Below are positions 10,718-49,498 of a stretch of 64,000 nt of DNA, piece by piece. This stretch comes from an uncultured Lachnospiraceae bacterium (GTDB taxonomy: Bacteria > Bacillota > Clostridia > Lachnospirales > Lachnospiraceae): positions 7,755 to 71,754 of the forward strand of contig CAMJPD010000001.1 in assembly GCA_946407765.1 (NCBI GenBank), in the 5' to 3' direction. A program made the translations under genes and the position numbers. The notes beneath the pieces were generated by a model. The model was not told where the DNA came from. It ran no database searches and saw nothing but the letters and a program-made list of their open reading frames with translations. Within the stretch, counting starts at the first letter, position 1. The number at the start of each line of letters is the position of its first letter.

Positions 10718-10722
10718 AACAG

Positions 10723-10770
10723 AATAATGGGGACGGAGTTATTTATCCAAACCGTCCCCATTATTCTTAT
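10723..10770 (+). terminator. Rho-independent terminator of giant gene 1
   Basis: Perfect 14-bp inverted repeat AATAATGGGGACGG (10723-10736) / CCGTCCCCATTATT (10752-10765) with a 15-nt loop, followed by a T-rich stretch, starting 6 nt after the stop codon. Confidence 0.8.
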
Positions 10771-10909: not shown

Positions 10910-10990
10910 AAAATGCCCATAAATTAAAGGTTTTTTGGCTGGACCGCCAAAGAGAAACCGGTTAAAATCTTTATAAATTAGTGGGAAAAT

Positions 10991-15390: not shown

Positions 15391-16419
15391 TTGAGTAAAA
15401 ATATAAAAAAAGTTTTGTCATATGTTGTAGCCATCGTTCTCGCACTTGGCATAGGCGTTACATACGCTTATGCAGTCGGCGGCAATGACACAAATAATTT
15501 AATGACAAAAACAGAATGGCAACAAAAAACAGATCAAATAAGAGCTTCAATTGACAATGTAACAAAAACAATAAATGCAACCAATATGGATTTTGTCATG
15601 AACGGTCCAAGACTCCAAGTAAGTCTTGCAGAAGGATGGCAAAATAATGGAGCAATTATACGACATGATGAAATGTTTTCTCCAACCCACTCCGATACAA
15701 CTTCTACTTGGGATTTATATCCTACACGAAACGATATATTTTTACAAGACACATTTGATGGTAGACAAAAGGTAAAACAAGTAGCTTGGGCAGATAACAG
15801 TCCAACGGGATATTCACTCCACGGTTTAAGAGAGCGCATGGCATTGAAAACAAATATTCCTGATATTTATCTAATAGTTTCAGTTTTTTCACCATTTGCC
15901 GTTTTCTTGCATTATGTACAAGTGGGAACTTATCCTATTTATAATTCAACATCTGCAATTCCTGCAAGAACTTTAACTGTTCAATTACCTCGTCCTGACT
16001 GGGTTCACTATCAAAGTGTGACAAAAACTATAGAAGATGTATCACGAACCAACTCAAGAGTATGGTACGGATATAATCTTGCAGGAAATGCAGAGTATAC
16101 AGATTCTACAATCAATGCAAGTGACGGATTTAGTAATACGGGCGATGCATATGTCAGAAAAACAGTTGCTGCAGCATCAATAACATACACAATAGACTTT
16201 CCAGCAGGAGCTAATTCTATTAGGTCTAGAGTAACAAATTTTTGGGATATTATTCCATGTAATATGAAAACACGTAAATTTGCCACAGCCGGCGATAGAG
16301 TAACAACTGACTTAGTTGGAAAATGGGGAGGTTCTGTTGCCAAAGTATATAGTCCTGCCAAAGGTTGCCTATGTCTTAAAACTTTTGTTAACGGCGAAAT
16401 CCCTATAATGAATGAATAA
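15391..16419 (+). CDS. Cassette 1, family A: secreted hypothetical protein
   Basis: 342 aa. TTG start 6 nt after AGGAGG. Signal peptide ending TYAYA. Family motifs TNMDFVMNGPRLQ, FDGRQKV, PDIYLIVSVF and C-terminal KVYSPAKGCLCLKTFVNGEIPIMNE, shared with 39019, 42518 and 45936. Confidence 0.9.
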   Translation: MSKNIKKVLSYVVAIVLALGIGVTYAYAVGGNDTNNLMTKTEWQQKTDQIRASIDNVTKTINATNMDFVMNGPRLQVSLAEGWQNNGAIIRHDEMFSPTHSDTTSTWDLYPTRNDIFLQDTFDGRQKVKQVAWADNSPTGYSLHGLRERMALKTNIPDIYLIVSVFSPFAVFLHYVQVGTYPIYNSTSAIPARTLTVQLPRPDWVHYQSVTKTIEDVSRTNSRVWYGYNLAGNAEYTDSTINASDGFSNTGDAYVRKTVAAASITYTIDFPAGANSIRSRVTNFWDIIPCNMKTRKFATAGDRVTTDLVGKWGGSVAKVYSPAKGCLCLKTFVNGEIPIMNE

Positions 16420-16436
16420 GAAGGTAGAGGCAGATG

Positions 16437-17672
16437 ATGAATAAATATATAAAAAAATGTTTAATTATATACCTAACTCTTGCCACAGTTTTATGTGGTA
16501 TGGTAGGTGTTGCTTATGCAGTAAGTTCTACTGATGCCGATGAATTTTTAACTCGCTCTGAATTTGCAGTTGATTTTGCAAGACTTGTAAAAAAATTAGA
16601 CGAGGAAGAACGAGAGGTATTAAAAAACATTTACAAATACCGTACAACAAATGTTAAATTTGTAACATGGGACACTCCAACAAAATATTACAATAGTACA
16701 AATGCCGATGGCGGATATTACAACGGAGGAAATGTATTTCCACGACCAAAAATATCTGGAGGCAGTGCCAATTATGGCTGGGGTTTTTCAAATGGCAGTG
16801 CCACAAATAAAAAACTTGGTAGATATACAAACTATTGTTTATATAGATTATGGAATGGCAATTACTATATAACAAAAAATATATATGGATATGATGATAA
16901 TTCAAGACATTATTATCCTACGGTAAACTATTCTGTTCCAATAGAAAATTTTCCAGGATGGTATTTGGAAGTAAGAAACTATTATCTAGCCAATAGTTAT
17001 ATAGGCTCTTACTGTTCAATAATAAGGCTCGACCCAAATGCTATAAATTACCCAAGCACTTCAGATACACTAATTCTTCGCTTTAAAAAAGATAAGTTCG
17101 TATATTGTGGTGATAATGTAACAAAGTTAACTACAACAAAAAACACAGTTACATATACTAGTGATTATTGGCAAGGTCCACTCGTGATAGCTCCTCTCAC
17201 TTTTGATAAGTATAGTGATTTTGCTGCCCAAGGAACTCAAAGCGCAACTTACGAAAGTTGGATTGATGAATCAACAGGCGATTTTATGATGACCATAAGA
17301 GGTCTTTCTAGATGCTATGCAACAGATACGACCAATTATTATAATTATGTATATTATTTAGCAAATTCAAATATAACAGTTTGTAAAATTATCCCATCAG
17401 ACAACGTTGAATATATGTGTGGAAACTTATATGGATATTATTCAAGCAGAGTTACTTGGCAGCCATCAATGTCATCTCCTTATGTTCCATCAGCTTGTTT
17501 CATAGGCACTGGACTGCTAGAAGATCCATATTGGCAATATGAATTTGTAGATTGTGAAAACGGAATTAAATATTGGCATGCTTATAAACCACCAGCATTA
17601 GCCCCTAGTTCTGCAACATCTAATGCTCCAACTTCAGTAGGCATACACTACTCACTTCCTATAGTTTATTAA
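16437..17672 (+). CDS. Cassette 1, family B: secreted hypothetical protein
   Basis: The second of two adjacent ATGs is chosen (GAGG spacing; N-terminus MNKYIKKCL identical to B3/B4). Signal ends VAYA. Motifs YKYRTTNVKF, YRLWNGNYYI, SVPIENFPGWYL, DNVEYMCG, CENGIKYWHAY, C-terminal HYSLPIVY. Confidence 0.9.
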   Translation: MNKYIKKCLIIYLTLATVLCGMVGVAYAVSSTDADEFLTRSEFAVDFARLVKKLDEEEREVLKNIYKYRTTNVKFVTWDTPTKYYNSTNADGGYYNGGNVFPRPKISGGSANYGWGFSNGSATNKKLGRYTNYCLYRLWNGNYYITKNIYGYDDNSRHYYPTVNYSVPIENFPGWYLEVRNYYLANSYIGSYCSIIRLDPNAINYPSTSDTLILRFKKDKFVYCGDNVTKLTTTKNTVTYTSDYWQGPLVIAPLTFDKYSDFAAQGTQSATYESWIDESTGDFMMTIRGLSRCYATDTTNYYNYVYYLANSNITVCKIIPSDNVEYMCGNLYGYYSSRVTWQPSMSSPYVPSACFIGTGLLEDPYWQYEFVDCENGIKYWHAYKPPALAPSSATSNAPTSVGIHYSLPIVY

Positions 17673-17683
17673 GGCGGTGACAT

Positions 17684-18667
17684 ATGAAGAATATAAATAT
17701 AAAAAAATTAATTCCAGGAATAATTAGCATAGTAGTAGTTATAGGCATGGCACTTCAATCATTTGCCACAGATATTGATATGGAATCATTTGTAAGAAGA
17801 GATCTCCATAAACAAACATATTATGAACTTGATTGGCTGATTGATGACATAGAAAAATCAATTGAAAGATTATATAAATGGACATGCACTAATGTTGTGT
17901 CATTTGGCGGTCAAGGAAATTATGTAAACGGAACAACAATTTCTTATCAAAGAGCTTCCACTCAAACATATCACTGGAATATGGATCCAATAATCGACTT
18001 ATCTGAAGAAGGCTACCTAAGATTCAACCCAGCCGATGCAATAAATGCTTTTGGAAACCATTCAAAGGCAGATGTATATGAAGCAGAACTTCCAGCAAGT
18101 CTTGCACTCTGGCGAAACGAAGTTGAATTATATCCAACAACAAAAATAAAAGCAAAACTAACAAGAACCTGGCCTAACACAACATCTGCCTCACAAAGTG
18201 CAACATGGACACAAGAAATAATTATGGGACCATTTAAAAAATTCCCAAACATCTCAACCCTCACAACTCAGGCCTCTACATTTTGCTCAGTCACAAAATT
18301 TTTCCCACTCTCATTTGACATGGCAAGTGTTTCATATAGATACGGAACCGAAACAGAACCAACAAGCTGGACAAGCATGACAGGTTCTCTTACCGTACTC
18401 CAAACAGATAAAAACACACAAAGCTATTCAACCATCCCAAGAGAATTACTACGAGGCGTTACGACGCAGGCAGATATAGAAGACAACTTCTATCGTGGCG
18501 ACAAAAGCAAAATTTCTACAACAGCTTGTTATTTTTATGCAAACACAACATGGGGAACAAATTTATCTAATTATGATAAAGTTTGGATTAGAGCAGTCGG
18601 CACAGTAAGCGGAACTTACGAACACAAAATTGACGGATGGACCCTCACCTCATGGAACAAAAAATAA
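17684..18667 (+). CDS. Cassette 1, family C: secreted hypothetical protein
   Basis: 327 aa, 11 nt after B1. Signal ends QSFA. Motifs YYELDWLIDDIEKSIERLYKWTCTNV, LPASLALW, MGPFKKFP, EPTSWTS, C-terminal TSWNKK. Confidence 0.9.
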   Translation: MKNINIKKLIPGIISIVVVIGMALQSFATDIDMESFVRRDLHKQTYYELDWLIDDIEKSIERLYKWTCTNVVSFGGQGNYVNGTTISYQRASTQTYHWNMDPIIDLSEEGYLRFNPADAINAFGNHSKADVYEAELPASLALWRNEVELYPTTKIKAKLTRTWPNTTSASQSATWTQEIIMGPFKKFPNISTLTTQASTFCSVTKFFPLSFDMASVSYRYGTETEPTSWTSMTGSLTVLQTDKNTQSYSTIPRELLRGVTTQADIEDNFYRGDKSKISTTACYFYANTTWGTNLSNYDKVWIRAVGTVSGTYEHKIDGWTLTSWNKK

Positions 18668-18929
18668 ATAGAAAATTGTTTCAAACTATATCCCATTCTA
18701 TATCTAGATGTAGTAGTAGGCCATAACTATATGTGGGCGCAGAGAAGATAAAAGAATCCAAACTTTAAGTAAAATTAATAATTATTAAGAAAAAAAGCAA
18801 TCAATAAAAGCCAAAAAAATATCATATAGGTTATAATTATATATGCATAACTAGATAGCAGAAAACAAATATTTTTTGTGCTGTTTTGTTGTGTTAACTT
18901 GTGTCAAATTCTAAATTTAACTAGATTTA

Positions 18930-38816: not shown

Positions 38817-38824
38817 ATCTTATT

Positions 38825-38851
38825 AAAAGCACCTATTTAGGTGCTTTTTTT
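38825..38851 (+). terminator. Rho-independent terminator of giant gene 2
   Basis: AAAAGCACCT (38825-38834) / AGGTGCTTTT (38839-38848), 4-nt loop, run of T; starts 9 nt after the stop. Confidence 0.85.
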
Positions 38852-39018
38852 GATGCTTATTTTCTTAATTTACTTTAAGATGTATTAAAATGCGTTGTAT
38901 TTAAGGGGCAAATTTTGTAAAATTAATAATAACATAGATTAAGTGTAATTTGCCTTGGCAAGTTATGTTTTGTTTATGTAGCTTAGTTTGTATAAAAATT
39001 ATCCTTGCAGGAGGGGAT

Positions 39019-40104
39019 ATGGAAAGACATATAAAAAAATATTTGTCATATGTGCTTGTGATTGTTCTTGCAGTAGGAATGGGCATCTCATATGCATATG
39101 CAGTTGGAGCCAACGACTCTAATGCTTTTGTTACTATACAAGAATATGAAGAAAGAGTTGAGGAAATTGAAACTTCAATTAATAATATTTCTAAAACAAT
39201 ATTAGATACCAATATGGATTATGTAATGAATGGTCCTAGACTTCAAGCTAATCTTGTAGAAGGTTTTGAAAATAAAGGTGGTACTAACTTAGCCGGAGCA
39301 AGCGTAATGTATTATCCATATAGAGACAATGCTGAAAGTACATGGTTTAGCAGATATTCTCCAGTTAACTATGTAATGCTTGGAGATACATGGGATGGTA
39401 GACAAGTTGTAACAGGTAATATTCCAACCTATGCAGGAGATGTTAATAATACTTTGTTTCCATGTATGTGTAGATTTGCAGTTAAGTCAGACACTCCAAA
39501 TATATACATAATTCTTTCTTTCTATTATGCTGGCATAGGAGATCCAGATGGAATAAGAATTTATATAGGTCAAGCAAGTTATGTTGACTTAAGTAAAGAA
39601 ATACAAGACTACTCTCAAGCTACTACAATTACTGCAACAGTTCCTCTCACAGAATGGTGGAATCTTGGTGGAACTGCAGGGCCACAAACACTAGCAAGAA
39701 ATAATACAAGTATATATACAGGATCTAAGAGTGATTCAATGTTCCCACCATATCTTATTTACTCTACTAATAATAGTGCAACAACATATAACTTATCAAA
39801 TCCAGGAACTGGTTGGCTAACTCGTGCTGTTACACCACTTTCTGCTACTGTTACATTTGAATTCCCAGCAAATAGCTGTATCATACGATATGAAAATACA
39901 AGCACACCATATTTTGCATGGAATTTATTTCCTATAGATATGAAAGGAAGAAAATATGGTAATGCTTATGATCAGATTTATGTAAGTGATACTACTACTA
40001 CATATAAGTCAGCCCACGTAATTGCTAAAGTTTATAGTCCACAGAAAGGTTGTCTTGCACTTAAGTCTTATCTTAATGGTGAGATACCAATTCTTAATGA
40101 ATAA
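39019..40104 (+). CDS. Cassette 2, family A: secreted hypothetical protein
   Basis: The internal ATG at 39019 is chosen (GGAGGGG RBS; N-terminus MERHIKKYLSYV aligns with the other A proteins). 361 aa. SYAYA-VGANDSNAFVT, TNMDYVMNGPRLQ, TWDGRQVV, PNIYIILSFYY, KVYSPQKGCLALKSYLNGEIPILNE. Confidence 0.9.
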   Translation: MERHIKKYLSYVLVIVLAVGMGISYAYAVGANDSNAFVTIQEYEERVEEIETSINNISKTILDTNMDYVMNGPRLQANLVEGFENKGGTNLAGASVMYYPYRDNAESTWFSRYSPVNYVMLGDTWDGRQVVTGNIPTYAGDVNNTLFPCMCRFAVKSDTPNIYIILSFYYAGIGDPDGIRIYIGQASYVDLSKEIQDYSQATTITATVPLTEWWNLGGTAGPQTLARNNTSIYTGSKSDSMFPPYLIYSTNNSATTYNLSNPGTGWLTRAVTPLSATVTFEFPANSCIIRYENTSTPYFAWNLFPIDMKGRKYGNAYDQIYVSDTTTTYKSAHVIAKVYSPQKGCLALKSYLNGEIPILNE

Positions 40105-40151
40105 TTTTGCAAGGTGCATAAAGCAAGAACAAGAAATTAATAGGAGTTAGT

Positions 40152-41402
40152 ATGAAGAACTATCTTAGAAAAACTTTAATGATATATATATCACTTGCGA
40201 CCATCCTTGTTGGTATGGCAGGAGTTTCTTATGCTATCACAGCATCTGAAGCAGATGAATATGTAACAAGAGCTGAGTTTACAGTTAAGATGGAATCGGT
40301 TAGAGATAAGCTTAATGAAAAGGAAATAAAACTTCTTGGTGAGATTAATAAATATCGTTCAACCCATGTGAAATTCACAACATTTGATTCACCTACTCGT
40401 CAACACACAGCTGCAAATGCAAGAGGTGGTTATTACAATGGCGGTAATATGTTCCCAAGACTTAGATTAAACAATGAATGGTATTATGGTTCGCTTGGAT
40501 GGGCAGCAGATATTAATGGAAAGAGTGATGGTCAATATAGACACCTTAATTTATTTAGATTGTGGAATGGCAACTATTACATAACGAATGAAATTTCTGC
40601 CAAGACATCTCTTGAATCAGGTACTGGTACACAATACTTTGGAATGAGAAAATGTGCTGTCCCTGTAGAAAATTATCCAGGTTGGTATATGACCCTAATT
40701 ACCTATAGCTCTTTTGGACATTATATAAGATGGTGGGGTTCACTTGTAAAGCTTGATCCAAATGTTCCTATGCCAAGCAACAATGAGCTTATGAGAATGA
40801 GAAATGGATGGATAACTCTTAGATTCAAGAAAGAATTATGGACATATATTTCTCCAACACTTACAACTAAAATTACAAAAAATAAGTTTACAACTAGTAT
40901 TACAACATATCATTATAGTAATATGAATGAAGGATTTCTTGCTGACTCTTACCGTTCAGATTTGAGTACTAATTCAAATACTACAATGAATTATTCAACA
41001 TGGTTAGATGAGACAACAGGAGACTATATGTGCTCAATACAATATGTAAGACCTGTGTCTGAATATTATGGAGAGGATGTATATGTATTCAATAGTTCCA
41101 ATATAGGACTTTGCAGACTTGTTCCTCAAGATAACGTTGAGTATCTTATGGGATCTATTATATATGATGGTTCTGGTTCAGGAAGAACTAGCACATCTTA
41201 TGCTTCTATATATCCAGATCCACGTTATATAGGAACAGGACTTTATAATGACCCATATTATGAATATGAAATCGTGGACTGCGAGAATGGCATAAAGTAT
41301 TGGCATGTAAGAAAGAAACCAACTAAGTATCTTATTTCAGGTGCAGCTGCCACAGTACCAACAACACTTGCTTTAAATTATTCTATTCCTATTGTTTATT
41401 AA
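40152..41402 (+). CDS. Cassette 2, family B: secreted hypothetical protein
   Basis: 416 aa. RBS AGGAG. Signal ends VSYA. INKYRSTHVKF, FRLWNGNYYI, AVPVENYPGWYM, WLDETTGDYM, DNVEYLMG, CENGIKYWHV, NYSIPIVY. Confidence 0.9.
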   Translation: MKNYLRKTLMIYISLATILVGMAGVSYAITASEADEYVTRAEFTVKMESVRDKLNEKEIKLLGEINKYRSTHVKFTTFDSPTRQHTAANARGGYYNGGNMFPRLRLNNEWYYGSLGWAADINGKSDGQYRHLNLFRLWNGNYYITNEISAKTSLESGTGTQYFGMRKCAVPVENYPGWYMTLITYSSFGHYIRWWGSLVKLDPNVPMPSNNELMRMRNGWITLRFKKELWTYISPTLTTKITKNKFTTSITTYHYSNMNEGFLADSYRSDLSTNSNTTMNYSTWLDETTGDYMCSIQYVRPVSEYYGEDVYVFNSSNIGLCRLVPQDNVEYLMGSIIYDGSGSGRTSTSYASIYPDPRYIGTGLYNDPYYEYEIVDCENGIKYWHVRKKPTKYLISGAAATVPTTLALNYSIPIVY

Positions 41403-41445
41403 TTAATTTTATTGATTGCAATATACCAGATATTGAGGAAAAGTT

Positions 41446-42423
41446 ATGAATAAACTAAATTTAAGAAAATTGATTCCAGGAATTATAAGTGTGTTCATTA
41501 TCATGAGCATGGGATTTGCTACATTTGCCACAAATCTTGATCTAGAAGCATTTGTAAAGAGAGATGTTTTTCTTACTAAGTATTACGAGCTTGATTGGAA
41601 GGTAGATGAACTTGATTCTATGATTCAGAGACTTTATAAATTTACATGTGATAATGTAAAGTCTTTTTCAGGAACATATATGCACTATAACTCATCACCA
41701 TATTTTGCTATGCCTAATCAAGGAAATAATACATATCCACTTAGAAATTATGTCATTGCAGAAATAAGTGATGAAGGATATCTTCATGTTAACAAGAGAT
41801 TTACTCTCTATGTCAACTCATTTACAAAATCTAATGTAAAAACACTTACAAGAGAAATTCCTGCATCACTATGTGCATGGATGCCAGGTATAGAACCAGC
41901 TCCAAATTGTAAAGTAAAATATAATATTAAGATAACAGATACAAACCCAACACAAACTACAGGAACGAGCAGTACAGTAGAAGTAATCATGGGACCATTC
42001 AAAAAATTCCCAAGAATTACAGGAACGGGACTTTCAGGTGCTCTCATATGTGAAGTTCCAAGAGTTTTAATTCTCGGAGGGTTTAACCCAGCAAACTCAG
42101 TGTACTTTGCACAAAATCAAGAAAAGGAACCAACATCATGGTCATCAACTACAACAGCTATGTATGTAGGCACAAATAACAAGGGTTCGCAATATTCTCG
42201 TTTTCCAGATATGGACATAACACAATTTACAAATGATATATATACACTCGATTCTTCAAAGCAGACACAAACATTTTATTTTTCAAACGCTTTTTCGCAA
42301 GACTTATCTAATGCAACTAATGTATGGATAAGATATTATACGACAGATAACAATAATATAAATACACAGGGTAATTATGCCGCATTCCCACAGATGAACA
42401 TCACCTCGTGGAACTATAGATAA
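41446..42423 (+). CDS. Cassette 2, family C: secreted hypothetical protein
   Basis: 325 aa. Signal ends ATFA. YYELDWKVDELDSMIQRLYKFTCDNV, IPASLCAW, MGPFKKFP, EPTSWSS, TSWNYR. Confidence 0.9.
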   Translation: MNKLNLRKLIPGIISVFIIMSMGFATFATNLDLEAFVKRDVFLTKYYELDWKVDELDSMIQRLYKFTCDNVKSFSGTYMHYNSSPYFAMPNQGNNTYPLRNYVIAEISDEGYLHVNKRFTLYVNSFTKSNVKTLTREIPASLCAWMPGIEPAPNCKVKYNIKITDTNPTQTTGTSSTVEVIMGPFKKFPRITGTGLSGALICEVPRVLILGGFNPANSVYFAQNQEKEPTSWSSTTTAMYVGTNNKGSQYSRFPDMDITQFTNDIYTLDSSKQTQTFYFSNAFSQDLSNATNVWIRYYTTDNNNINTQGNYAAFPQMNITSWNYR

Positions 42424-42517
42424 GTAGTAAAAGGAAATAATGAGAATAGAAGAACAATTATTTCCCAACACCCTCTGGTATTCTCGTATAACATTTCAGT
42501 ACAATAAGGAGAAAACA

Positions 42518-43573
42518 ATGAACAAACACATCAAAAGATGCATGTCATATGCCCTCGGCATCATTCTTGCAATGGGCATCGGCCTTTCGTATGCGTATGC
42601 AGTCGGCGCCAATGACTCAAACGCATTCGTCACAGTGACAGAGTTTGATGCAAAGGTTGCCCAAATCGAAGCATCACTTGATAATGTTGCACAAACTATA
42701 AAAACTACGAATTTAGACTTTGTCATGAACGGTCCAAGACTTCAAGCAAGCCTTATTGAAGGGATGGAAAATACAAGTGGTGCTTCTACTTACGGAAATC
42801 CATTTGAATCTACCATGTCTTCTGGACTTAGTACAACAACCAATAACTATTTAATGAGAAGCAATATAGTTCTTACAGATCAATGGGATGGTAGGCAATC
42901 TGTGGATAGATATGACTATTATGGTGGAGATATGAATGGCCCAGAATATTCTTGCAAGATGAGGTATGCGCTTAGATCGGATCAAGATCCAAATATTTAT
43001 TTAATTTTTAGTTATTATTATGTTGCAAATTCAGGACATCCAACTCTCGTACAAGTTTGGTATCTTGATATAAGTAAGCCATATCAAGATTATTCTACTG
43101 CTAGAAGCCTTACTGTTACTTTCTCATATCAAGATCACATGCTTTTTAATGGAAATCCATTTTATGACACATCAAGAAGTAGCTCATATATATACACATC
43201 GAACAGACTTGAGTATATGCAAAATACTAGATTGTGCTATTCAGGTAGTAATAATACTCCTACATATGGGGCTTTAGCAAATCCAGGAACAGGCTATTTT
43301 ACTTGCCAAGTAATAGGAGACAATGTAACACAGACATATGACTTCCCTGCAAACTCAGGAGGTATGAGACTAGTTGCAGGATGGCTATCTTTTGGTCCAT
43401 GTGCGTTAAAAAGAATGGAAGGACGTAAATATGGGAATCTATCAGATATGCTAAGAGTATCTGTTACAGGCGACACAAAGCCATCACAAGTTTATAAAGT
43501 ATTCTCTCCTCAAAAAAACTGTCTAGCTCTTAAATCATACATGAATGGTGAGATACCAATATTTAATGAGTAA
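42518..43573 (+). CDS. Cassette 3, family A: secreted hypothetical protein
   Basis: The internal ATG at 42518 is chosen (AAGGAG RBS; MNKHIKRCMSYA aligns with the family). 351 aa. SYAYA-VGANDSNAFVT, TNLDFVMNGPRLQ, QWDGRQSV, PNIYLIFSYYY, KVFSPQKNCLALKSYMNGEIPIFNE. Confidence 0.9.
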   Translation: MNKHIKRCMSYALGIILAMGIGLSYAYAVGANDSNAFVTVTEFDAKVAQIEASLDNVAQTIKTTNLDFVMNGPRLQASLIEGMENTSGASTYGNPFESTMSSGLSTTTNNYLMRSNIVLTDQWDGRQSVDRYDYYGGDMNGPEYSCKMRYALRSDQDPNIYLIFSYYYVANSGHPTLVQVWYLDISKPYQDYSTARSLTVTFSYQDHMLFNGNPFYDTSRSSSYIYTSNRLEYMQNTRLCYSGSNNTPTYGALANPGTGYFTCQVIGDNVTQTYDFPANSGGMRLVAGWLSFGPCALKRMEGRKYGNLSDMLRVSVTGDTKPSQVYKVFSPQKNCLALKSYMNGEIPIFNE

Positions 43574-43586
43574 TAGGAGAACGGCG

Positions 43587-44858
43587 ATGAATAAATATAT
43601 TAAAAAGTGTTTAATTGTATATGTTTCTCTTGCACTAATCCTTGTTGGTATGGCTGGAGTTTCTTATGCCATTACTGCATCAGATGCAGATGGTTATGTA
43701 ACAAGATCAGAATTTGCAACAGATATGACATATCTCCAAACAAAACTAGATGAAAAAGAATCAAGTCTTTTAGGCAAGATAAATAAATATCGTTCAACAG
43801 ATATAAAATTTATAACATGGGATTCTCCTGACAAATATTATGACGTAGGAACAAGTAATAGATTCAGCGGTTATCATACTGGTGGAAACTTTTTTCCAAG
43901 AAAAAAATCTGCTAACGGCTCTAACTATATGTATTCATATGGTTTATATAACAATATGTATCAGAGAGGTACACAAAACTATAGAACAGACATAAATATA
44001 TATAGGCTATGGAATGGAAATTATTTTATCTGCCCATCTTTAGGAGACAAAGAAAGTTTGTCTGACGACTCTGGAATAGAATATTATGATCTTAGAACAT
44101 ATGCTGTTCCTGTAGAAGACCTTCCAGGATGGTATATGGTTATGGGAACTTTCTATCAAGAATATGCTTATTTAAGATTAATTTTTTCTCTTGTAAAACT
44201 TGATGCTTCAGTTCCTATGCCATCTAATAGTGAATTGCTTAATATATATAATACTTCACATACAATTCGTCTTAAGAAAGATCTTTGGGATTATTGCGGT
44301 GACTATACCCCAAAATTAACAACAACTCCAACAACACTAACAGCAACTTCTACATATGCATACAATACAAACTGGACTGGTCCGCTTTGCCCTACTTGGA
44401 TTACAGGTAATAGATCTGGTTCTTCAGGAACTGATTCTTGCGTATGGACAGGAGTAGTTGATAAGGATACTGGAGATTATATACTTACATTCAACCATGT
44501 GCGTCCAGTTTCTGCATATTACCAGGATATATGGTATGACTATTCTGGAACTAATTGCATGATATGTAGATTTTTACCAAAGGATAATGTTGAATATATG
44601 ATGGGACCTATGTCAACGACATCACTTAACTATGCCCCTTCATCAACTAATCAAACATCAAGTCAGATGGCAATCCCAGATGCGAGATACATAGGAACAG
44701 GATTGCATGATGATCCATCATGGGAACATGAAATTGTAGAATGTGTTAATGGAATTAAATACTGGCATGCTGTCAGAAGAGCAGAGAACACAAGAAAGAG
44801 TACTGTCAAGACACCTTTTGGACTTTCGTTCCACTGTTCATTACCAATAGTATATTAA
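43587..44858 (+). CDS. Cassette 3, family B: secreted hypothetical protein
   Basis: The ATG at 43587 is chosen (AGGAG RBS; MNKYIKKCL). 423 aa. INKYRSTDIKF, YRLWNGNYFI, AVPVEDLPGWYM, DNVEYMMG, CVNGIKYWHA, HCSLPIVY. Confidence 0.9.
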   Translation: MNKYIKKCLIVYVSLALILVGMAGVSYAITASDADGYVTRSEFATDMTYLQTKLDEKESSLLGKINKYRSTDIKFITWDSPDKYYDVGTSNRFSGYHTGGNFFPRKKSANGSNYMYSYGLYNNMYQRGTQNYRTDINIYRLWNGNYFICPSLGDKESLSDDSGIEYYDLRTYAVPVEDLPGWYMVMGTFYQEYAYLRLIFSLVKLDASVPMPSNSELLNIYNTSHTIRLKKDLWDYCGDYTPKLTTTPTTLTATSTYAYNTNWTGPLCPTWITGNRSGSSGTDSCVWTGVVDKDTGDYILTFNHVRPVSAYYQDIWYDYSGTNCMICRFLPKDNVEYMMGPMSTTSLNYAPSSTNQTSSQMAIPDARYIGTGLHDDPSWEHEIVECVNGIKYWHAVRRAENTRKSTVKTPFGLSFHCSLPIVY

Positions 44859-44883
44859 AACAAATGTTTATAAGGTGAAAGTT

Positions 44884-45882
44884 ATGAATATAATAAATTT
44901 AAAAAAATTTCTCCCAGGATTTATAAGTGTGGTTATAATAGCAGGCATGGCTGCAAGTACATTCGCAACAAATATTGACCTATCAGCATTTGTTCAGAGA
45001 GATACATATAAAACAAAATTTTATGAGCTTGAGTGGCGCATAGATGATATAGATAACGAGCTTGATAGACTTTATAAATATACATGTACTAATATTAAAT
45101 CATTTGCTGGGTCAAATTTTGCATATAATGGATATGTTTTTAGATCTGCATTTCATCCAAATGCTCAAACTAGTGCAACATATGTTGCAGCTTCTATAGG
45201 AAAGATGTTAGATACAAGTCAAAGCAAGTATTTAAGATTTAATTCTGCAGGACTTCTTAGTTGGGCTTCTGCTACATATGATTCAACAAAAACGCTTCGC
45301 GTGTTTGAGTATAGTGTTCCAGCAAGTCGTTGCATATGGCGTGATGACATAGAGTTATTGCCAGAAACTAAAGTGTCACTAAGAGGAACTTTAGATGGAA
45401 TTATAAACGCAACATCTTCAATAGAAATAGTTATGGGACCATTCAAGAAATTTCCTAAGATCACAAGCCCAGGAATGGGGAAAACGACGGGATATGTATG
45501 TGAATGGCCTACAGCAGTATTGCACAATGCATGGTCTGATAGAACAATATATTATGCTTCAGGTTCTAAAACAAAACCAACATCATGGACTACAGAATCA
45601 AGTGCAAAAATGTATATTACATATGCCACAAGAGGAATAACTTCAAATTCTAAGACAGTGCCTTCAACAGATGAAGATAGAGCAGGAGGATTCTTCAAGG
45701 AAGCCATGAAGGACTATACTCAACAACTCTATATTTACACATCTGCCTTTAATGCACTTGATGGTAAGGAAAATTGCTGGGTAAGACTAAATTTTTCAAT
45801 GAGCAACGATACAGGCTCTATGGCAGCAAGACTTGATAGTAGCTTTGTAAATCACACCAACTGGAACACCCACGAGGAATAA
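44884..45882 (+). CDS. Cassette 3, family C: secreted hypothetical protein
   Basis: The ATG at 44884 is preferred to the GTG at 44875 (AAGGTGA RBS; MNIINLKKFLPGFISV aligns with C1/C2). 332 aa. FYELEWRIDDIDNELDRLYKYTCTNI, VPASRCIW, MGPFKKFP, KPTSWTT, TNWNTHEE. Confidence 0.85.
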   Translation: MNIINLKKFLPGFISVVIIAGMAASTFATNIDLSAFVQRDTYKTKFYELEWRIDDIDNELDRLYKYTCTNIKSFAGSNFAYNGYVFRSAFHPNAQTSATYVAASIGKMLDTSQSKYLRFNSAGLLSWASATYDSTKTLRVFEYSVPASRCIWRDDIELLPETKVSLRGTLDGIINATSSIEIVMGPFKKFPKITSPGMGKTTGYVCEWPTAVLHNAWSDRTIYYASGSKTKPTSWTTESSAKMYITYATRGITSNSKTVPSTDEDRAGGFFKEAMKDYTQQLYIYTSAFNALDGKENCWVRLNFSMSNDTGSMAARLDSSFVNHTNWNTHEE

Positions 45883-45935
45883 CAGGGACGTAAGAATAAT
45901 TATTTCCCACTTAATAAATATACAAGGAGATTATG

Positions 45936-46958
45936 ATGAAAACGAACATTAAAAAGTATCTTTCATATGTTCTCGGTATTGTTCTCGCAATGGGCCTTGG
46001 CCTTTCGTATGCATATGCAGTCGGCGCCAATGACTCTAATGCATTCGTCACCAAGACAGAGTGGCAGGTGAAGGTAGCTCAACTTGAGACCTCACTTGAC
46101 AATGTAAATAAGACAATTAAAGATACTAATATGGATTTTGTGATGAACAGACCAAGATTGCAGGTTAATCTTTTCGAGGGATTACAAAACTGTGCATTTC
46201 CAACAAGAGAATCAAGACTTTACTTTGCTCCATCTGGTTATCACAGTACCTCTTTTTCGAGTATAGAAAATCAGTATCCAAAGTGGAATGGACTATATCT
46301 TGCAGATCAGTGGAATGGAAAACAAAAAGTTGTAAATTCTTATTGGCCAACAGGAGATACATCTTATGAAACAGAAAGCTTTTGCTGCAGATATGCTCTT
46401 GCAACAACAACACCAGGTTATTATGTAATAGTATCTGTATTTTATAGATCTGCACACACATTCCACTATGTTAAGTTAGGAAAATATCCTTTTGAGTCAT
46501 CTGTATCAGCTAAATCACTTCAAGTAAAGTTTAAGAAATCAGAATGGGGAAACATACACAATAATAGTCAAGTAAGTGCATATAGCAGATCTAATTCATA
46601 TATTTATTCGGGAAATGTATATCCACAAAACACATCCTACGTAAACTGGGTAAATGGTGCTGCAGATGGCTACACAGGTACAAATGCATACACATCACGC
46701 GTTGATGATGGAGAATACTGGACACAAACTTTTGAATTTCCATCTGGTAGCTGGGCGATGAAATGTGTAGGTAGTTCGTCTCCTTATCATTTGTTCCCTT
46801 TAGATATGACTACGAGAAAATTTGGAACGCTTTATGATACATGTAATGTGAACCCAACAGACCAATGGGGTGAAGTAGCCAAGGTCTATAGTCCAGCCAA
46901 AGGTTGTTATTGCTTAAAGTCATATATTAATGGCGAAGTTCCTATACTTAATGAGTGA
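45936..46958 (+). CDS. Cassette 4, family A: secreted hypothetical protein
   Basis: The second of two adjacent ATGs is chosen (AAGGAG spacing; MKTNIKKYLSYV has the same length as A2). 340 aa. SYAYA-VGANDSNAFVT, TNMDFVMNRPRLQ, QWNGKQKV, GYYVIVSVFY, KVYSPAKGCYCLKSYINGEVPILNE. Confidence 0.9.
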   Translation: MKTNIKKYLSYVLGIVLAMGLGLSYAYAVGANDSNAFVTKTEWQVKVAQLETSLDNVNKTIKDTNMDFVMNRPRLQVNLFEGLQNCAFPTRESRLYFAPSGYHSTSFSSIENQYPKWNGLYLADQWNGKQKVVNSYWPTGDTSYETESFCCRYALATTTPGYYVIVSVFYRSAHTFHYVKLGKYPFESSVSAKSLQVKFKKSEWGNIHNNSQVSAYSRSNSYIYSGNVYPQNTSYVNWVNGAADGYTGTNAYTSRVDDGEYWTQTFEFPSGSWAMKCVGSSSPYHLFPLDMTTRKFGTLYDTCNVNPTDQWGEVAKVYSPAKGCYCLKSYINGEVPILNE

Positions 46959-46972
46959 TGGAGGCAGAGATT

Positions 46973-48220
46973 ATGAATAAATATATTAAAAAGTGTTTAG
47001 TTGTATATATATCTCTAGTTGTGATTCTATGTGGCATGGTAGGAATTACTTATGCTATAACAGCATCTGATGCAGACCAATATATTACCAGATCTCAATA
47101 TGCAACAGATATGAATCATTTGCAATCGAAGCTTGAAGAGAAAGAATCAAGCATTATGGGCAAAATTAATAAATATCGTTCAACAGATGTTAAGTTTGTA
47201 ACATACGATAATCCTATAAAGCAACACCTTAGTGGAACAACTAATTTTATAGGAAAATACAATGGAGGAAACTATTTCCCAAGGCAATATCCCGGCAATG
47301 CCGGTGGTAGAAATGCCACATATGAAGCTGTATCATATCAAAAGCAGGGAACAAATGCACATTTGAATTTATATAGATTATATAATGGTAATTATCTCAT
47401 TTCTAATGCTATGGGATATTCAGATGATAGTACTTATACTTTATATCCTACGACAAATTTTGCTGTTCCATGTGAAAATTTACCAGGTTGGTATCTAGAA
47501 TGTAGATTACAATATCAAGGCTGGAATGTTTGCTACTACCTTGTATCATTATTAAAACTAGATGCAACTGTTCCATATCAAAAACCATACGCTACAGAAA
47601 GAAATAGAATACATAATATGGAATTGATGTTCCGTTTTAAGAAAGATTTCTTCAAATATACAAGTGATTATGCAACAAAATTAACTCCAACACCTACTAC
47701 ATACAGTGCTAATATAGCACGTTTCTATAATTCAGCATATAATCAACCTTTCTCATATTGTTATCACAATACAGAAAGTTCTAATAGTGAGGCGGTAACT
47801 ATTCGTTCATGGCTTGATGAGGATACGGGGGATTATATGATGGGAGTAAAGGGACTTTATGCTAATATCCCTGATTATGCTTCTGCAACCATGTGGTTTA
47901 CTAGTTCAAGTATAGGACTCTCAAGACTTATAGTTTCGGATAATGTTGAATACCAATGTGGTAATACTTATGGATATTTCTTTACAAATACAGGTGGAAA
48001 TAGCGGACAATCTCAAGGTGGATATCCACCTCCATGTCACATAGGAGAAGGGCCTGGCGCATATGGTGATGGTTACTGGGAATATGAATTTGTTGATTGT
48101 GAAAACGGAATAAAATATTGGCATGCTTATAGAAAAGCAAGAAATGCAAATCCAACAGGTGAGACGGGAACAGGATATTCTTCTGTAGGCGTTCACTATA
48201 ATATTCCTATATTATATTAA
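46973..48220 (+). CDS. Cassette 4, family B: secreted hypothetical protein
   Basis: The ATG at 46973 is chosen (GGAGG RBS). The first 27 nt are identical to B3. 415 aa. INKYRSTDVKF, YRLYNGNYLI, AVPCENLPGWYL, DNVEYQCG, CENGIKYWHAY, HYNIPILY. Confidence 0.9.
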   Translation: MNKYIKKCLVVYISLVVILCGMVGITYAITASDADQYITRSQYATDMNHLQSKLEEKESSIMGKINKYRSTDVKFVTYDNPIKQHLSGTTNFIGKYNGGNYFPRQYPGNAGGRNATYEAVSYQKQGTNAHLNLYRLYNGNYLISNAMGYSDDSTYTLYPTTNFAVPCENLPGWYLECRLQYQGWNVCYYLVSLLKLDATVPYQKPYATERNRIHNMELMFRFKKDFFKYTSDYATKLTPTPTTYSANIARFYNSAYNQPFSYCYHNTESSNSEAVTIRSWLDEDTGDYMMGVKGLYANIPDYASATMWFTSSSIGLSRLIVSDNVEYQCGNTYGYFFTNTGGNSGQSQGGYPPPCHIGEGPGAYGDGYWEYEFVDCENGIKYWHAYRKARNANPTGETGTGYSSVGVHYNIPILY

Positions 48221-48261
48221 TTCATAATATACGGTTATAAATTTTAGATAAGGGTGAAATT

Positions 48262-49239
48262 ATGAAAGCAAATATAAATAAAAAAATGATAACTTCCATA
48301 GTAAGCATTGTTATTGTCGCAGGCATGGCTCTTCAATCATTTGCTACAAATATAGACCTTGAAGCCTTCGTTAATAAAGAGGAATATATGTCTAAGTACT
48401 ATGAGATCGATTGGAGAATTGATGAGATAGATGCAGAGCTTGAAAGACTTTATAAGTTTACATGTACTAATGTTGCTTCATATGGAGGAACAGGTGATAA
48501 TACATATCGTTCTGATCAGCCATTTTACATGAGAAATGTAACACAAACATACCCATGGTATCCAAATCCTATTGTAGATACAAGTACTGAAGGTTATCTT
48601 CGTGTTAATTTCCAGGATATGATACATAAGTATGGCGCTCATGGTAAGTATGACGTTTTTGAAAGAGAAGTCCCAGCTTCATTATGTAAGTGGAGAACAG
48701 GTTTTGAGTTATATCCTAATACAACAATTAAGATGAAGGTAACAAGAAACCTTGCAAATACAACTTCAGCTTCTCCAACTAAAGGTATGTCTGCTGAAAT
48801 GATAATGGGACCATTCAAGAAAGTCCCTTATATTACACAGACTTCTTATGCAGGAGCATTAATGACAACAGACCAATTTTTCTGGCACTATCAAACTTCT
48901 TACAACATGTATTATGCTTATGGCACAGATAAAGCGCCAACAACATGGTCAACTCAGATGGGAAGTAATATTTACCTATCAAATATGAGCCTTGGTAATA
49001 ACAAGCCAGATAATTTTCCAGCTGAATTAAGATATGAAGTAGATATAGAAAATTCAAAATATAAATATGACAAGGCATCTAATGTAGCCTTTATGTATTG
49101 TTCAAGTGCAATGACAACAGATCTTCGCTCTCGTGATAAGGTATGGCTTAGGGCATATGCAAGTTGGACAGGAGAATTAACAGACTTAACTCTCGCTGAT
49201 TTAACATGTACAACCTGGAACTACAGACCAGCAGAATAA
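48262..49239 (+). CDS. Cassette 4, family C: secreted hypothetical protein
   Basis: 325 aa. Signal ends QSFA. YYEIDWRIDEIDAELERLYKFTCTNV, VPASLCKW, MGPFKKVP, APTTWST, TTWNYRPAE. Confidence 0.9.
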   Translation: MKANINKKMITSIVSIVIVAGMALQSFATNIDLEAFVNKEEYMSKYYEIDWRIDEIDAELERLYKFTCTNVASYGGTGDNTYRSDQPFYMRNVTQTYPWYPNPIVDTSTEGYLRVNFQDMIHKYGAHGKYDVFEREVPASLCKWRTGFELYPNTTIKMKVTRNLANTTSASPTKGMSAEMIMGPFKKVPYITQTSYAGALMTTDQFFWHYQTSYNMYYAYGTDKAPTTWSTQMGSNIYLSNMSLGNNKPDNFPAELRYEVDIENSKYKYDKASNVAFMYCSSAMTTDLRSRDKVWLRAYASWTGELTDLTLADLTCTTWNYRPAE

Positions 49240-49310
49240 GGTAATAAAGGGGACGGAATAATAGGGACGTAAGAATTATCATTCTACTTAATAAAAATAA
49301 ATAAATAATT

Positions 49311-49352
49311 AAGCAAAAACACCTATTTATATGGTGTTTTTTGCTTGTTTTT
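49311..49352 (+). terminator. Rho-independent terminator closing the cassette array
   Basis: AAGCAAAAACACC (49311-49323) / GGTGTTTTTTGCTT (49333-49346), 9-nt loop, one bulged T, followed by GTTTTTT. Confidence 0.8.
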
Positions 49353-49354
49353 TA

Positions 49355-49363
49355 TGTTATAAT
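49355..49363 (+). promoter_or_regulatory. Candidate extended -10 promoter element (TGTTATAAT) for the 49499 gene
   Basis: Exact TGnTATAAT immediately after the terminator. No convincing -35 at 17-bp spacing. About 130-nt leader to the start codon. Sequence pattern only. Confidence 0.35.
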
Positions 49364-49498
49364 TGATACCAAATGGGTGGCGTTTATTTCGCCGTTCGTT
49401 TGTATTTTTTGAGTATTTTGCTTGCTCAAAACTTATTAAAGTAGCCATCAAGGCAGATGTTCAAAACTTAAATTGATATAACACACGGAGGTTTCTCT

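What the first reader, a model, noticed from the sequence alone, without database searches (positions are those of the whole stretch)
45884..46051. Mosaic conservation: near-identical cassette 5' ends versus unalignable cores, plus a spacer footprint after the last cassette
At DNA level the gene 5' ends are almost identical between cassettes. A3 42581-42633 and A4 45999-46051 match at 50 of 53 nt. B3 43587-43625 and B4 46973-47011 match at 38 of 39 nt, with the first 27 nt identical. By eye the central parts cannot be aligned. The C3-A4 spacer (AGGGACGTAAGAATAATTATTTCCCACTTAATAAATA, 45884-45920) recurs after C4 (AGGGACGTAAGAATTATCATTCTACTTAATAAAAATA, 49263-49299). There it leads into a terminator instead of another A gene, which marks the boundary of the duplication unit. 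Conserved ends flanking divergent cores are what one expects if cassettes exchange segments by homologous recombination or gene conversion, or if the cores are under diversifying selection.
Basis: partly seen in the sequence, partly recalled or inferred. Interest (0 to 1): 0.6.

Follow-up and report, generated by a model that had tools for sequence, protein, structure and literature searches.

The report
Repeated three-gene secreted-protein cassettes
A small-genome gut bacterium of ruminants carries at least ten copies of a three-gene unit for secreted proteins of unknown family; selection, not copying between cassettes, keeps their front ends alike, while their bodies have diverged.

Summary
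A3/A4 match at 50/53 nt. B3/B4 match at 36/39, not 38/39. The spacer motif recurs (26/29 nt). The cores do align as proteins, and A and B also have conserved 3' ends.

The window holds four A-B-C cassettes and the 1.25 Mb genome at least ten. The same A>B>C order is kept in 26 complete cassettes. A, B and C match no Pfam, PHROG, NCBIfam or PDB sequence.

The conserved 5' ~240 nt encode a signal peptide plus a heptad helix. Gene conversion is not supported. Paralogue synonymous sites are saturated (same-codon 0.52-0.58 against 0.49-0.51 expected). 5' identity within a genome (0.67-0.72) equals that between species (0.66-0.70). Between strains dS is flat (0.055/0.065/0.086), while dN/dS is 0.14 (5'), 0.42 (core, ~1 in patches) and 0.03 (3').

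A complex model places A4+B4+C4 in one heterotrimer joined by the helices (0.85 against best control 0.30).

The spacer motif looks like a decayed copy of a dispersed palindromic repeat. Cassette content does differ between strains: one strain has another A gene directly after C1.

Verdict: a conserved assembly stalk with variable heads, in an orphan multigene family. No fold could be predicted.

The parts
15391..16419 (+). A1, secreted protein of the A family (cassette 1)
   Evidence: ORF with RBS and TTG start; A-family profile hit E 6.7e-173
16437..17672 (+). B1 (cassette 1)
17684..18667 (+). C1 (cassette 1). In another strain (L036) a further A gene follows its stop directly
39019..40104 (+). 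A2 (cassette 2). The likely start is the ATG behind GGAGGGG, not the TTG at 38950
40152..41402 (+). B2
41446..42423 (+). C2
42424..42517 (+). C2-A3 spacer. It holds AAGAACAATTATTTCCCA, 17 of 18 identical to the C3-A4 spacer, and part of it is missing in strain L058
   Evidence: D17
42518..43573 (+). A3 (likely start 42518).
43587..44858 (+). B3 (likely start 43587)
44884..45882 (+). C3 (likely start 44884)
45876..45935 (+). C3-A4 spacer. GGAATAA-CAGGGACGTAAGAATAATTATTTCCC is a decayed copy of the dispersed palindromic element and overlaps the C3 stop. The hairpin is weak (-8 kcal/mol, z -1.7). The A4 RBS follows
   Evidence: D13
45936..46958 (+). A4. Residues 1-28 are the signal peptide (AYA|VG, inferred). 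Residues ~36-70 form a heptad helix
46973..48220 (+). B4 (likely start 46973)
48262..49239 (+). C4
49240..49299 (+). Stretch after C4 with two partial copies of the element's left arm (GGGGACGGAATAATAGGGACGTAAGAAT...). 49255-49283 matches 45876-45904 at 26 of 29
49310..49347 (+). Intrinsic terminator hairpin plus T run, ending the cassette 2-4 array. A second terminator lies at 49370-49402
38812..38861 (+). Terminator hairpin after the giant ORF, so cassettes 2-4 need their own promoter within 38862-39018
   Evidence: I3
10720..10767 (.). Full copy of the dispersed palindromic element GAATAATGGGGACGG...CCGTCCCCATTATTC (16-bp stem, -26.4 kcal/mol, z -5.2)

Best explanation
The cassette is a three-gene unit, A>B>C, for three secreted proteins that probably assemble into one A:B:C heterotrimer.

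Each protein starts with a Sec signal peptide. A short acidic-aromatic motif follows at the mature N-terminus (VGANDSNAFVT in A, ITASDADxYVT in B, TNxDLEAFV in C). After that comes a helix of about 35 residues with heptad spacing. In the model the three helices pack together as a stalk.

This module, and the 3' ends of A and B, are held by strong purifying selection at the protein level. The beta-rich bodies evolve three or more times faster in amino acids, and some patches look neutral or diversifying.

The 'near-identical 5' ends' therefore come from shared constraint, from AT-rich codon preference near the start, and from chance in short windows. They do not come from recent gene conversion.

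The cassettes are old duplicates. A, B and C cores co-diverge as a unit. Copy number varies between strains and species.

The spacer motif after C3 and C4 is most likely a decayed copy of a palindromic intergenic repeat that is scattered over the genome.

Shown: the anatomy, the selection pattern and the lack of homogenisation. Inferred: signal-peptide cleavage, heterotrimer assembly (model only), surface or ligand-binding role.
For: Anatomy.
- The window holds four cassettes, each gene with an RBS and a hydrophobic N-terminus.
- The genome holds 9 complete A, 9 B and 8 C genes plus 2 cut C genes.
- All metagenome loci with family hits keep the order A>B>C, in arrays of up to 5 complete cassettes plus the start of a sixth. 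26 complete cassettes were counted.

Constraint.
- Family-wide pairwise amino-acid identity in 30 non-redundant A proteins is 0.59-0.86 for residues 1-80, 0.22-0.38 in the core and 0.77 in the last 20. B and C behave alike at the N-terminus.
- In 17 strain-level orthologue pairs, dS is 0.055 (5'), 0.065 (core) and 0.086 (3'). Omega is 0.14, 0.42 and 0.03.

No homogenisation.
- Same-codon fraction among own paralogues is 0.52/0.58/0.56 against 0.49/0.51/0.49 expected.
- 5' nucleotide identity is 0.72/0.71/0.67 within a genome and 0.70/0.69/0.66 between species.
- The excess of identical codons in codons 1-20 is also seen between genomes: 0.53-0.62 against 0.43-0.46 expected.

Assembly.
- The complex model of mature A4+B4+C4 scores 0.85 (runs 0.89, 0.83, 0.85) against a best control of 0.30.
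- That mark was reached by 116 of 157 solved complexes and 2 of 215 mismatched pairs.
- The runs share at least 66% of contacts, and the partner's pLDDT is at least 70.
- Contacts fall at heptad spacing (A: 47, 50, 54, 57, 61, 65, 68) in all three chains.
- Cores of A, B and C co-vary across 22 non-redundant cassettes (Mantel r 0.57-0.64, p 0.0005).

The module is general.
- The first ~60 residues match 2-22 stretches per genome in 10 of 12 other genomes of the genus.
- A related leader tops at least 447 clusters of unnamed proteins of 310-989 aa.
Against: - No fold could be predicted. The stalk-and-head picture therefore rests on the complex model's contact list and on sequence.
- The complex job used my own alignments and three chains, so its calibration holds only roughly.
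- Beyond residue 80, contact residues are not more conserved than the rest (0.27-0.32 against 0.32-0.37).
- Some signals of exchange remain:
  - N-terminal distances do not track the distances of their own cores (Mantel r -0.01 to 0.10), although they track each other between A, B and C (0.28-0.43).
  - The A3 5' end in strain L058 switches to A4-like codons just before the contig end.
  - A4 against its strain orthologue has 12 synonymous differences in 52 sites at the 5' end, against 17.6 in 145-150 core sites.
  - Within-genome codon identity in A exceeds between-genome identity by 0.03-0.05.
- No anchor domain was found, so a surface location is a guess.
Confidence: 0.6

Rival explanations
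1. Concerted evolution: gene conversion between cassettes keeps the 5' ends (and spacers) alike while the cores drift.
For: - The A3/A4 tract has 15 of 18 identical codons.
- Several of the longest silent-identity runs fall in codons 1-33.
- The two spacers are 26 of 29 identical, although the flanking C genes are saturated and the spacer changes quickly between strains.
- The L058 A3 5' end carries A4-like codons.
Against: - Synonymous sites at the 5' ends are near saturation.
- There is no within-genome excess over between-species identity.
- The codon excess at the start is shared between genomes.
- Between-strain dS is not reduced at the ends.
- With 36 pairs per family the best silent-run p is 0.002.
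- The L058 switch sits at a contig end, in a repeat where short-read contigs break, so it may be an assembly chimera.
Confidence: 0.12
2. The conserved segments serve as crossover sites that add, delete or reshuffle whole cassettes without homogenising them, as in the Staphylococcus aureus lpl tandem cluster. This could act on top of the best explanation.
For: - Array length differs. The window has 1 and 3 cassettes. A related species has at least 5 cassettes where this genome has at least 2.
- In L036 another A gene follows C1.
- N-terminal and core distances are uncoupled.
Against: - The L036 junction lies at the C1 stop codon, not in a conserved segment.
- The longest exact run shared by two own paralogues is 54 nt. 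Medians are 14-18 nt, and inside the window the runs are 23 nt for A3/A4 and 27 nt for B3/B4.
- Cores of A, B and C stay congruent (r about 0.6), so the unit is not shuffled internally.
- The uncoupling may simply reflect saturated core distances.
Confidence: 0.3
3. The repeated spacer is a true footprint of the duplication unit (C stop, spacer, next A) and not an independently inserted repeat element.
For: - The two copies are closer to each other (26 of 29; the 14-mer is unique to them) than to any other element copy.
- They lie at the same place relative to the cassette, with a spacing of 3379 nt.
Against: - About 18 other sites carry the element GAATAAT-GGGGACGG...CCGTCCCC-ATTATTC. One copy in contig C11 and one in C16 look similar by eye to the two spacers; no identity count was made.
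- A neutral spacer should not stay 90% identical while the synonymous sites of the neighbouring genes are saturated.
- The post-C4 spacer accumulates differences between strains.
- The nhmmer profile of the full element did not recover the two spacers, so their membership is not proven either.
Confidence: 0.3

Closest known systems
Staphylococcus aureus lpl tandem lipoprotein-like paralogue cluster (Tsuru and Kobayashi 2008, PMC2568036; abstract read)
   Same: Tandem paralogues for exported proteins. Each ORF has a conserved segment beside variable segments. The arrangement differs between strains.
   Different: - In lpl a highly conserved central nucleotide segment acts as a recombination site, and the variable halves have incongruent trees.
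- Here the conserved part is the 5' module, only 65-87% identical in DNA.
- Synonymous sites are saturated, and no homogenisation or clear breakpoint in the conserved part was found.
- The unit here is three different genes, not one.
Variable surface-protein multigene families of small-genome bacteria (Mycoplasma Vsp/Vlp type; recalled, no call)
   Same: Many paralogues carry a conserved leader and a variable exposed part, and take up a sizeable share of a small genome (here about 31 kb of 1.25 Mb).
   Different: No lipobox, no repeat-driven size variation, and no phase-variable promoter or invertible element were seen. The proteins come as obligatory triplets.
Three-chain coiled-coil-stalked assemblies such as C1q A/B/C (recalled; analogy only)
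   Same: Three homologous or related chains, encoded side by side, are predicted to join through an N-terminal stalk with globular heads.
   Different: No sequence similarity was found. There is no collagen repeat, and the fold of the heads is unknown.
Tripartite secreted toxins of Bacillus (Hbl, Nhe; recalled)
   Same: Three secreted proteins of 330-420 aa from one operon.
   Different: No Pfam match at E up to 0.1 for any of the 12 proteins. By eye the sequences look rich in Y, W, N, T and G, which suggests beta-rich bodies; composition was not computed. There are ten paralogous operons in one genome.

Membership tests
Tandem paralogue cluster evolving by recombination at a conserved segment (lpl type) | A highly conserved nucleotide segment in every ORF, long enough for homologous recombination | tested here: inconclusive
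   A conserved 5' block of 243-266 nt exists but is only 67-77% identical. Longest exact runs are 23 nt for A3/A4 and 27 nt for B3/B4 in the window, and 54 nt at most in the genome.
Tandem paralogue cluster evolving by recombination at a conserved segment (lpl type) | Incongruent histories of the parts on either side of the conserved segment | tested here: inconclusive
   A, B and C cores are congruent (Mantel r 0.57-0.64). The N-terminus against its own core gives r -0.01 to 0.10, which may be saturation.
Tandem paralogue cluster evolving by recombination at a conserved segment (lpl type) | Rearrangements among strains | tested here: met
   L036 is 98.4% identical over cassette 1 and then carries a different next gene. 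Array sizes differ between related species.
Concerted evolution by gene conversion | Paralogues within a genome are more alike than copies in other genomes, also at synonymous sites | tested here: not met
   5' nucleotide identity is 0.72/0.71/0.67 within and 0.70/0.69/0.66 between genomes. Same-codon fraction is 0.52-0.58 against 0.49-0.51 expected.
Silent-cassette antigenic variation (vls/pilS type; features recalled) | Promoterless, truncated donor cassettes beside one expression site | tested here: not met
   All 12 genes in the window are full length with a start codon, an RBS and a hydrophobic leader.
Tripartite alpha-pore-forming toxins (Hbl/Nhe) | Match to the family's Pfam model | tested here: not met
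   0 families for all 12 proteins at E up to 0.1.
Phage receptor-binding or tail-fibre cassettes | Match to a phage protein family, with phage genes nearby | tested here: not met
   11 of 12 proteins have no PHROG hit. C4 has two weak hits on its helix (best E 1.4e-4). Neighbours are housekeeping genes and giant wall-binding proteins.
Dispersed palindromic intergenic repeat (REP-like), for the spacer motif | Palindromic hairpin present at many intergenic sites | tested here: met
   The full copy folds at -26.4 kcal/mol, z -5.2. GGGGACGG has 23 hits. Of 34 nhmmer hits, 22 have E below 0.01, at about 18 distinct sites.
Dispersed palindromic intergenic repeat (REP-like), for the spacer motif | The two cassette spacers are copies of it | tested here: inconclusive
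   They share GAATAA-(G)GGGACG-...AATTAT...CCC with copies in C11 and C16, but nhmmer did not report them at E up to 10.
Heterotrimeric coiled-coil complex | The three chains bind through their helices | tested here: met
   Model only: score 0.85 against best control 0.30. The mark was reached by 116 of 157 solved and 2 of 215 mismatched pairs. At least 66% of contacts are shared, and partner pLDDT is at least 70. This is not a measurement.

The most novel reading that the evidence does not exclude
The A-B-C cassettes encode a previously undescribed class of heterotrimeric, coiled-coil-stalked surface complexes. These would be the main variable exposed structures of a reduced-genome rumen Lachnospiraceae lineage. 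Because the stalk module is conserved across all cassettes, and across hundreds of other secreted proteins of the genus, chains from different cassettes might co-assemble. That would give a combinatorial repertoire of heads from about ten cassettes without any DNA rearrangement.
Probability: 0.15. Interest if true: 0.8.

Novelty: new variant of a known kind. Interest (0 to 1): 0.5.

Why it matters
About 2.5% of a 1.25 Mb genome goes to ten copies of a three-gene unit whose products match nothing known. An exhaustive profile search of 1.84 billion representative proteins found only 47 relatives.

If the predicted heterotrimer is real, it is a new building plan for variable exported proteins in gut Firmicutes. 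It would also give a handle on how small-genome rumen Lachnospiraceae meet hosts, phages or substrates.

For the scan itself there is a practical lesson. Near-identical short 5' tracts between paralogues can arise from a shared leader under selection plus codon bias. They should be tested at synonymous sites before recombination is invoked.

Tried and rejected
There is therefore no model and no fold search.
- Pfam, PHROGs and NCBIfam for A, B and C and for the genus's leader-bearing proteins: nothing usable.
- PDB sequence search with the A, B and C profiles: best E-values 0.15, 0.029 and 0.62, taken as chance.
- ESM Atlas for A4 and B4: no usable hit.
- Rfam on the window and on 45700-49500: no family at gathering score, and one chance-level miRNA match.
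- Genome-contig scan for A relatives: none.
- A second genome-contig scan with the arginine-pathway protein at 58387-59625, made for taxonomic orientation: two irrelevant hits.
- Full-length A was not found in 60 relatives, 12 of them in the same genus, at E 1e-10.
- Reads and contigs:
  - In run X2 contigs cover cassettes 2 and 3 well, while cassette 4 has little cover. I draw no conclusion about absence.
  - The listed joints have short sides (20-45 nt) at 88% likeness and are most likely paralogues of other organisms, so they are not used.
  - Contigs of an RNA library (X15) lie on A2, B2, C2, A3, B3 and C3. DNA carry-over was not excluded, so this is only a hint of transcription.
- Inverted repeats that could flank an invertible promoter: none convincing.
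- Whether contact residues beyond the helix are more conserved: they are not.
- Literature: two full-text searches found no description of these cassettes. Only analogues turned up.
Full report
WHAT IS THERE

The window holds four units of three same-strand genes, called A, B and C here.
- Cassette 1 lies at 15391-18667.
- Cassettes 2, 3 and 4 lie head to tail at 39019-49239.
- Likely starts were set from the RBS and from alignment of the leaders: A2 39019, A3 42518, B3 43587, C3 44884, A4 45936, B4 46973.

Two giant ORFs accompany them. One runs off the window's 5' end (2-10717; 4655 aa in the contig). The other is 18930-38816 (6628 aa). Both are paralogous acidic proteins that end in choline-binding wall repeats.

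Cassettes 2-4 begin after the giant ORF's terminator (38812-38861). They have no terminator between them and end with a terminator hairpin at about 49310-49347, followed by a second at 49370-49402.

CHECK OF THE OBSERVATION

- A3 42581-42633 against A4 45999-46051 is 50 of 53.
- B3 43587-43625 against B4 46973-47011 is 36 of 39, not 38. The first 27 nt are identical.
- The spacer strings are as quoted. The repeat finder reports 45876-45904 against 49255-49283 at 26 of 29, and also 42450-42467 against 45892-45909 at 17 of 18.
- The 14-mer AGGGACGTAAGAAT occurs at just these two sites in the 1.25 Mb genome.

The mosaic pattern is real but less extreme than described.
- In 20-codon windows the first ~80 codons are 52-87% identical in DNA between the window's paralogues. 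The cores are 24-72% (mostly 30-60%). The 3' ends of A and B rise again to 55-90%.
- The cores align as proteins (34-45% overall identity), with conserved islands (D4-D12).

HOW WIDE THE FAMILY IS

The window lies in contig C1 of a 1.25 Mb, 94-contig, 32% G+C genome, 92% complete.
- That genome has 9 complete A, 9 B and 8 C genes plus 2 C genes cut by contig ends. They sit in C1, C4, C17, C22 and C45, always in the order A>B>C. This is about 31 kb in all.
- Metagenome loci L035-L063 show the same order without exception, in arrays of up to five complete cassettes plus the start of a sixth. 26 complete cassettes were collected, 22 of them non-redundant.
- A word-indexed search of 5.8 billion proteins found 69 A relatives, none named and none with a Pfam domain.
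- An exhaustive HMMER search of 1.84 billion representatives found 47 at E up to 0.001. These were A proteins, fragments, six B proteins and one 212-aa protein.
- Full-length A was not found in 60 related genomes, 12 of them in the same genus.
- A, B and C have no match in Pfam, PHROGs (two weak hits for C4 only), NCBIfam or PDB sequences.
- Profile comparison shows that A and B are homologous over about 204 columns (probability 97.2%, E 3.5e-11). C shares only the first 58-72 columns with them (77.6% and 91.2%).

WHAT THE CONSERVED 5' END ENCODES

It encodes three things in turn:
- a hydrophobic leader ending in AYA|VG, YA|IT or FA|TN;
- a short acidic-aromatic motif;
- a helix whose hydrophobic residues follow 3-4 spacing (A4: W43, V47, L50, L54, V57, I61, F68; read from the sequence).

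The same kind of module tops other secreted proteins of the genus.
- The first ~60 residues of A match 2-22 stretches per genome in 10 of 12 congeners, in open frames mostly of about 213 or 350-640 aa.
- In those genomes, tandem genes of 448-597 aa share a nearly identical first ~75 residues and differ afterwards.
- A region search with one such leader found 447 clusters, all unnamed or 'hypothetical protein [Lachnospiraceae bacterium]'.

'Conserved 5' end, divergent body' is therefore a lineage-wide building plan and not a peculiarity of cassettes 3 and 4.

SELECTION OR CONVERSION?

Four tests agree.

1. Own paralogues. At aligned identical residues the codon is the same in 0.52 (A), 0.58 (B) and 0.56 (C) of cases. 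Codon usage alone predicts 0.49, 0.51 and 0.49. The duplicates are therefore old and synonymous sites are close to saturation. A permutation test on runs of silent identity gives a smallest p of 0.002 among 36 A pairs, 0.003 among 36 B pairs and 0.04 among 28 C pairs. A3/A4 is not among the eight best-ranked pairs shown.

2. Within against between genomes. 5' nucleotide identity within a genome is 0.72, 0.71 and 0.67. Between this genome and contigs of two other species it is 0.70, 0.69 and 0.66. Those contigs have flanks 76% identical, or an orthologous cassette 68% identical.

3. Codon bias at the start. The excess of identical codons in codons 1-20 (0.56-0.66 against 0.43-0.46 expected) is nearly as large between genomes (0.53-0.62). 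It reflects codon choice near the start and not exchange.

4. Strain-level orthologues. In 17 pairs at 94-99% identity, dS is flat: 0.055 (5'), 0.065 (core) and 0.086 (3'). Omega is 0.14, 0.42 and 0.03. Non-synonymous against synonymous counts are 27:71 at the ends and 278:176 in the cores (Fisher p 1.4e-9). Omega peaks at A residues 81-120 (1.06) and 201-240 (0.75), and at B residues 81-120 and 241-320 (0.64-0.70). C is the most constrained, with core omega 0.23 (first version).

The ends are therefore conserved by purifying selection on the protein. The cores are relaxed on average, with patches compatible with diversifying selection. Site-level tests need more strains.

SIGNALS THAT KEEP SOME EXCHANGE OPEN

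- Across 22 cassettes the distances of A, B and C cores correlate (Mantel r 0.57-0.64, p 0.0005). The three N-terminal modules correlate with each other (0.28-0.43). Each N-terminal module does not correlate with its own core (-0.01 to 0.10). Core distances are mostly saturated at 0.6-0.7, so this may be loss of signal rather than separate histories.
- The A3 5' end in strain L058 changes to A4-like codons about 60 nt before the contig ends. Short-read contigs of three public runs break in exactly these conserved tracts, at 40208, 42555-42623 and 46016. An assembly chimera is therefore as likely as a recombinant.
- Exact runs shared by own paralogues are short: median 14-18 nt and at most 54 nt. 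In the window they are 23 nt for A3/A4 and 27 nt for B3/B4.

CASSETTE CONTENT BETWEEN STRAINS

- L036 is 98.4% identical to window 15406-18668. After the C1 stop it continues, 23 nt later, with another A gene whose best match in this genome is 75%. The window has 262 nt of spacer and then the giant ORF at that place.
- A related species has at least five cassettes beside a flank that matches contig C4, where this genome has at least two.
However, the one mapped junction is not in a conserved segment.

THE SPACER

GGGGACGG has 23 hits in the genome, many in the frame GAATAAT-GGGGACGG-AGTTATTTATC-N-AAACCGTCCCC-ATTATTC.
- A full copy sits right after the first giant ORF (10720-10767) and folds into a 16-bp hairpin (-26.4 kcal/mol, z -5.2).
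- A profile of three full copies gives 34 nhmmer hits. 22 of them have E below 0.01, at about 18 distinct sites.
- The C3-A4 spacer looks similar by eye to a copy in contig C11. The stretch after C4 shares a duplicated left arm with a copy in C16. No identity count was made for either comparison.
- The profile search did not report the two spacers, so I rate their membership as likely but not shown.
- The C3-A4 copy forms only a weak hairpin (-8 kcal/mol, z -1.7).
- Most C genes in other loci are followed by a terminator hairpin, or directly by the next A gene.
- The two spacers are 90% identical, yet the neighbouring coding DNA is saturated, and the spacer differs between strains. They must therefore share a much younger origin than cassettes 3 and 4. 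That origin is either separate insertions of one element subtype or a local conversion.

HOW IT PROBABLY WORKS

One complex job was run on mature A4 (29-340), B4 (29-415) and C4 (29-325) with family alignments.
- The score was 0.85 (runs 0.89, 0.83, 0.85), against a best control of 0.30.
- That mark was reached by 116 of 157 solved complexes and 2 of 215 mismatched pairs.
- The runs share at least 66% of contacts, and the partner's pLDDT is at least 70.
- The calibration holds only roughly for three chains and my own alignments.
- Contacts run at heptad spacing through residues ~35-75 of all three chains. They continue into A 113-139 and 299-333, B 71-92 and 123-145, and C 66-127.

Together with the invariant gene order and the co-divergence of the three cores, this supports a 1:1:1 complex held by a three-helix stalk. 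The variable bodies would sit outside. Contact residues beyond the helix are not more conserved than others. That would fit cassette-specific co-adaptation, but it equally weakens the model. No wall anchor, lipobox or sortase signal is evident in the sequences, so where the complex sits is open.

WHERE IT LIVES AND WHETHER IT IS MADE

- Fourteen DNA runs from nine coded studies hold 42-49% of the sampled words. By their records they are bovine, sheep and other gut metagenomes.
- The three DNA runs that were laid give pieces of 0.3-2.6 kb with roughly 0.3-8% differences, most under 4%.
- Contigs of one RNA library lie on A2, B2, C2, A3, B3 and C3. No silent control stretch was laid, so this is only a hint of transcription.

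COMPARISON AND NOVELTY

The evolutionary pattern resembles the S. aureus lpl tandem cluster (PMC2568036, abstract read). It also resembles tandem T7SS immunity genes (PMC9484751, listing only). It lacks their evidence for recombination at the conserved segment.

Multigene families with a conserved leader and a variable body are a known kind. The obligatory triplet, the predicted heterotrimer and the orphan protein families make this a new variant. Two full-text searches found no description of it.

The finding as written (mosaic conservation caused by exchange) is mostly an ordinary consequence of domain-level constraint. The system behind it is the more interesting part.

Noticed in passing
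window 10772-10907: A tandem array of a 23-nt unit (TGACAAATGRMCCAAATTTT..., 5.9 copies; as a 46-nt unit 3.0 copies at 96%). It lies between the palindromic element after the first giant ORF and the AAA/DUF4143 gene at 10991. The array is also present in metagenome locus L061.
   Followed up: partly
window 2-10717 and 18930-38816: Two paralogous giant acidic secreted proteins (4655 aa in the full contig, and 6628 aa; about 30% identical over more than 2400 residues). Both have choline-binding wall repeats near the C-terminus. In this genome cassettes often lie just downstream of such large genes (also in contig C17).
   Followed up: partly
genome G000, about 18 sites (e.g. C19:16051-16098, C59:3868-3915, window 10720-10767): A dispersed palindromic element of about 48 nt, GAATAATGGGGACGG...CCGTCCCCATTATTC. 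It is often found right after stop codons, and half copies and duplicated arms also occur. No Rfam family matches in the window.
   Followed up: partly
L066 (G002:C12), L067 (G002:C18), L068 (G011:C57): Other species of the genus carry tandem genes for proteins of 448-597 aa. Their first ~75 residues (leader plus VGDNDGAAFITKAEF... helix) are nearly identical and the rest is divergent. At least 447 protein clusters share this leader, and none has a Pfam domain.
   Followed up: partly
L054:3276-4312: One A gene in a metagenome contig is split into two overlapping ORFs (3276-3770 and 3734-4312). This is either a frameshifted copy or a sequencing error.
   Followed up: no
L061 and L037 against window 10907-13483: In related contigs the stretch holding the AAA/DUF4143 gene (10991-12256) and the next ORF (12253-13488) is missing or replaced. 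The flanks still match at 73-96%, so this is a structural difference upstream of cassette 1.
   Followed up: no
window 42424-42517 against L058: The C2-A3 spacer of another strain (96.5% identical overall) appears to lack a short stretch of the window's spacer that includes part of the AAGAACAATTATTTC segment (judged by eye). The spacers therefore gain or lose element pieces between strains.
   Followed up: partly
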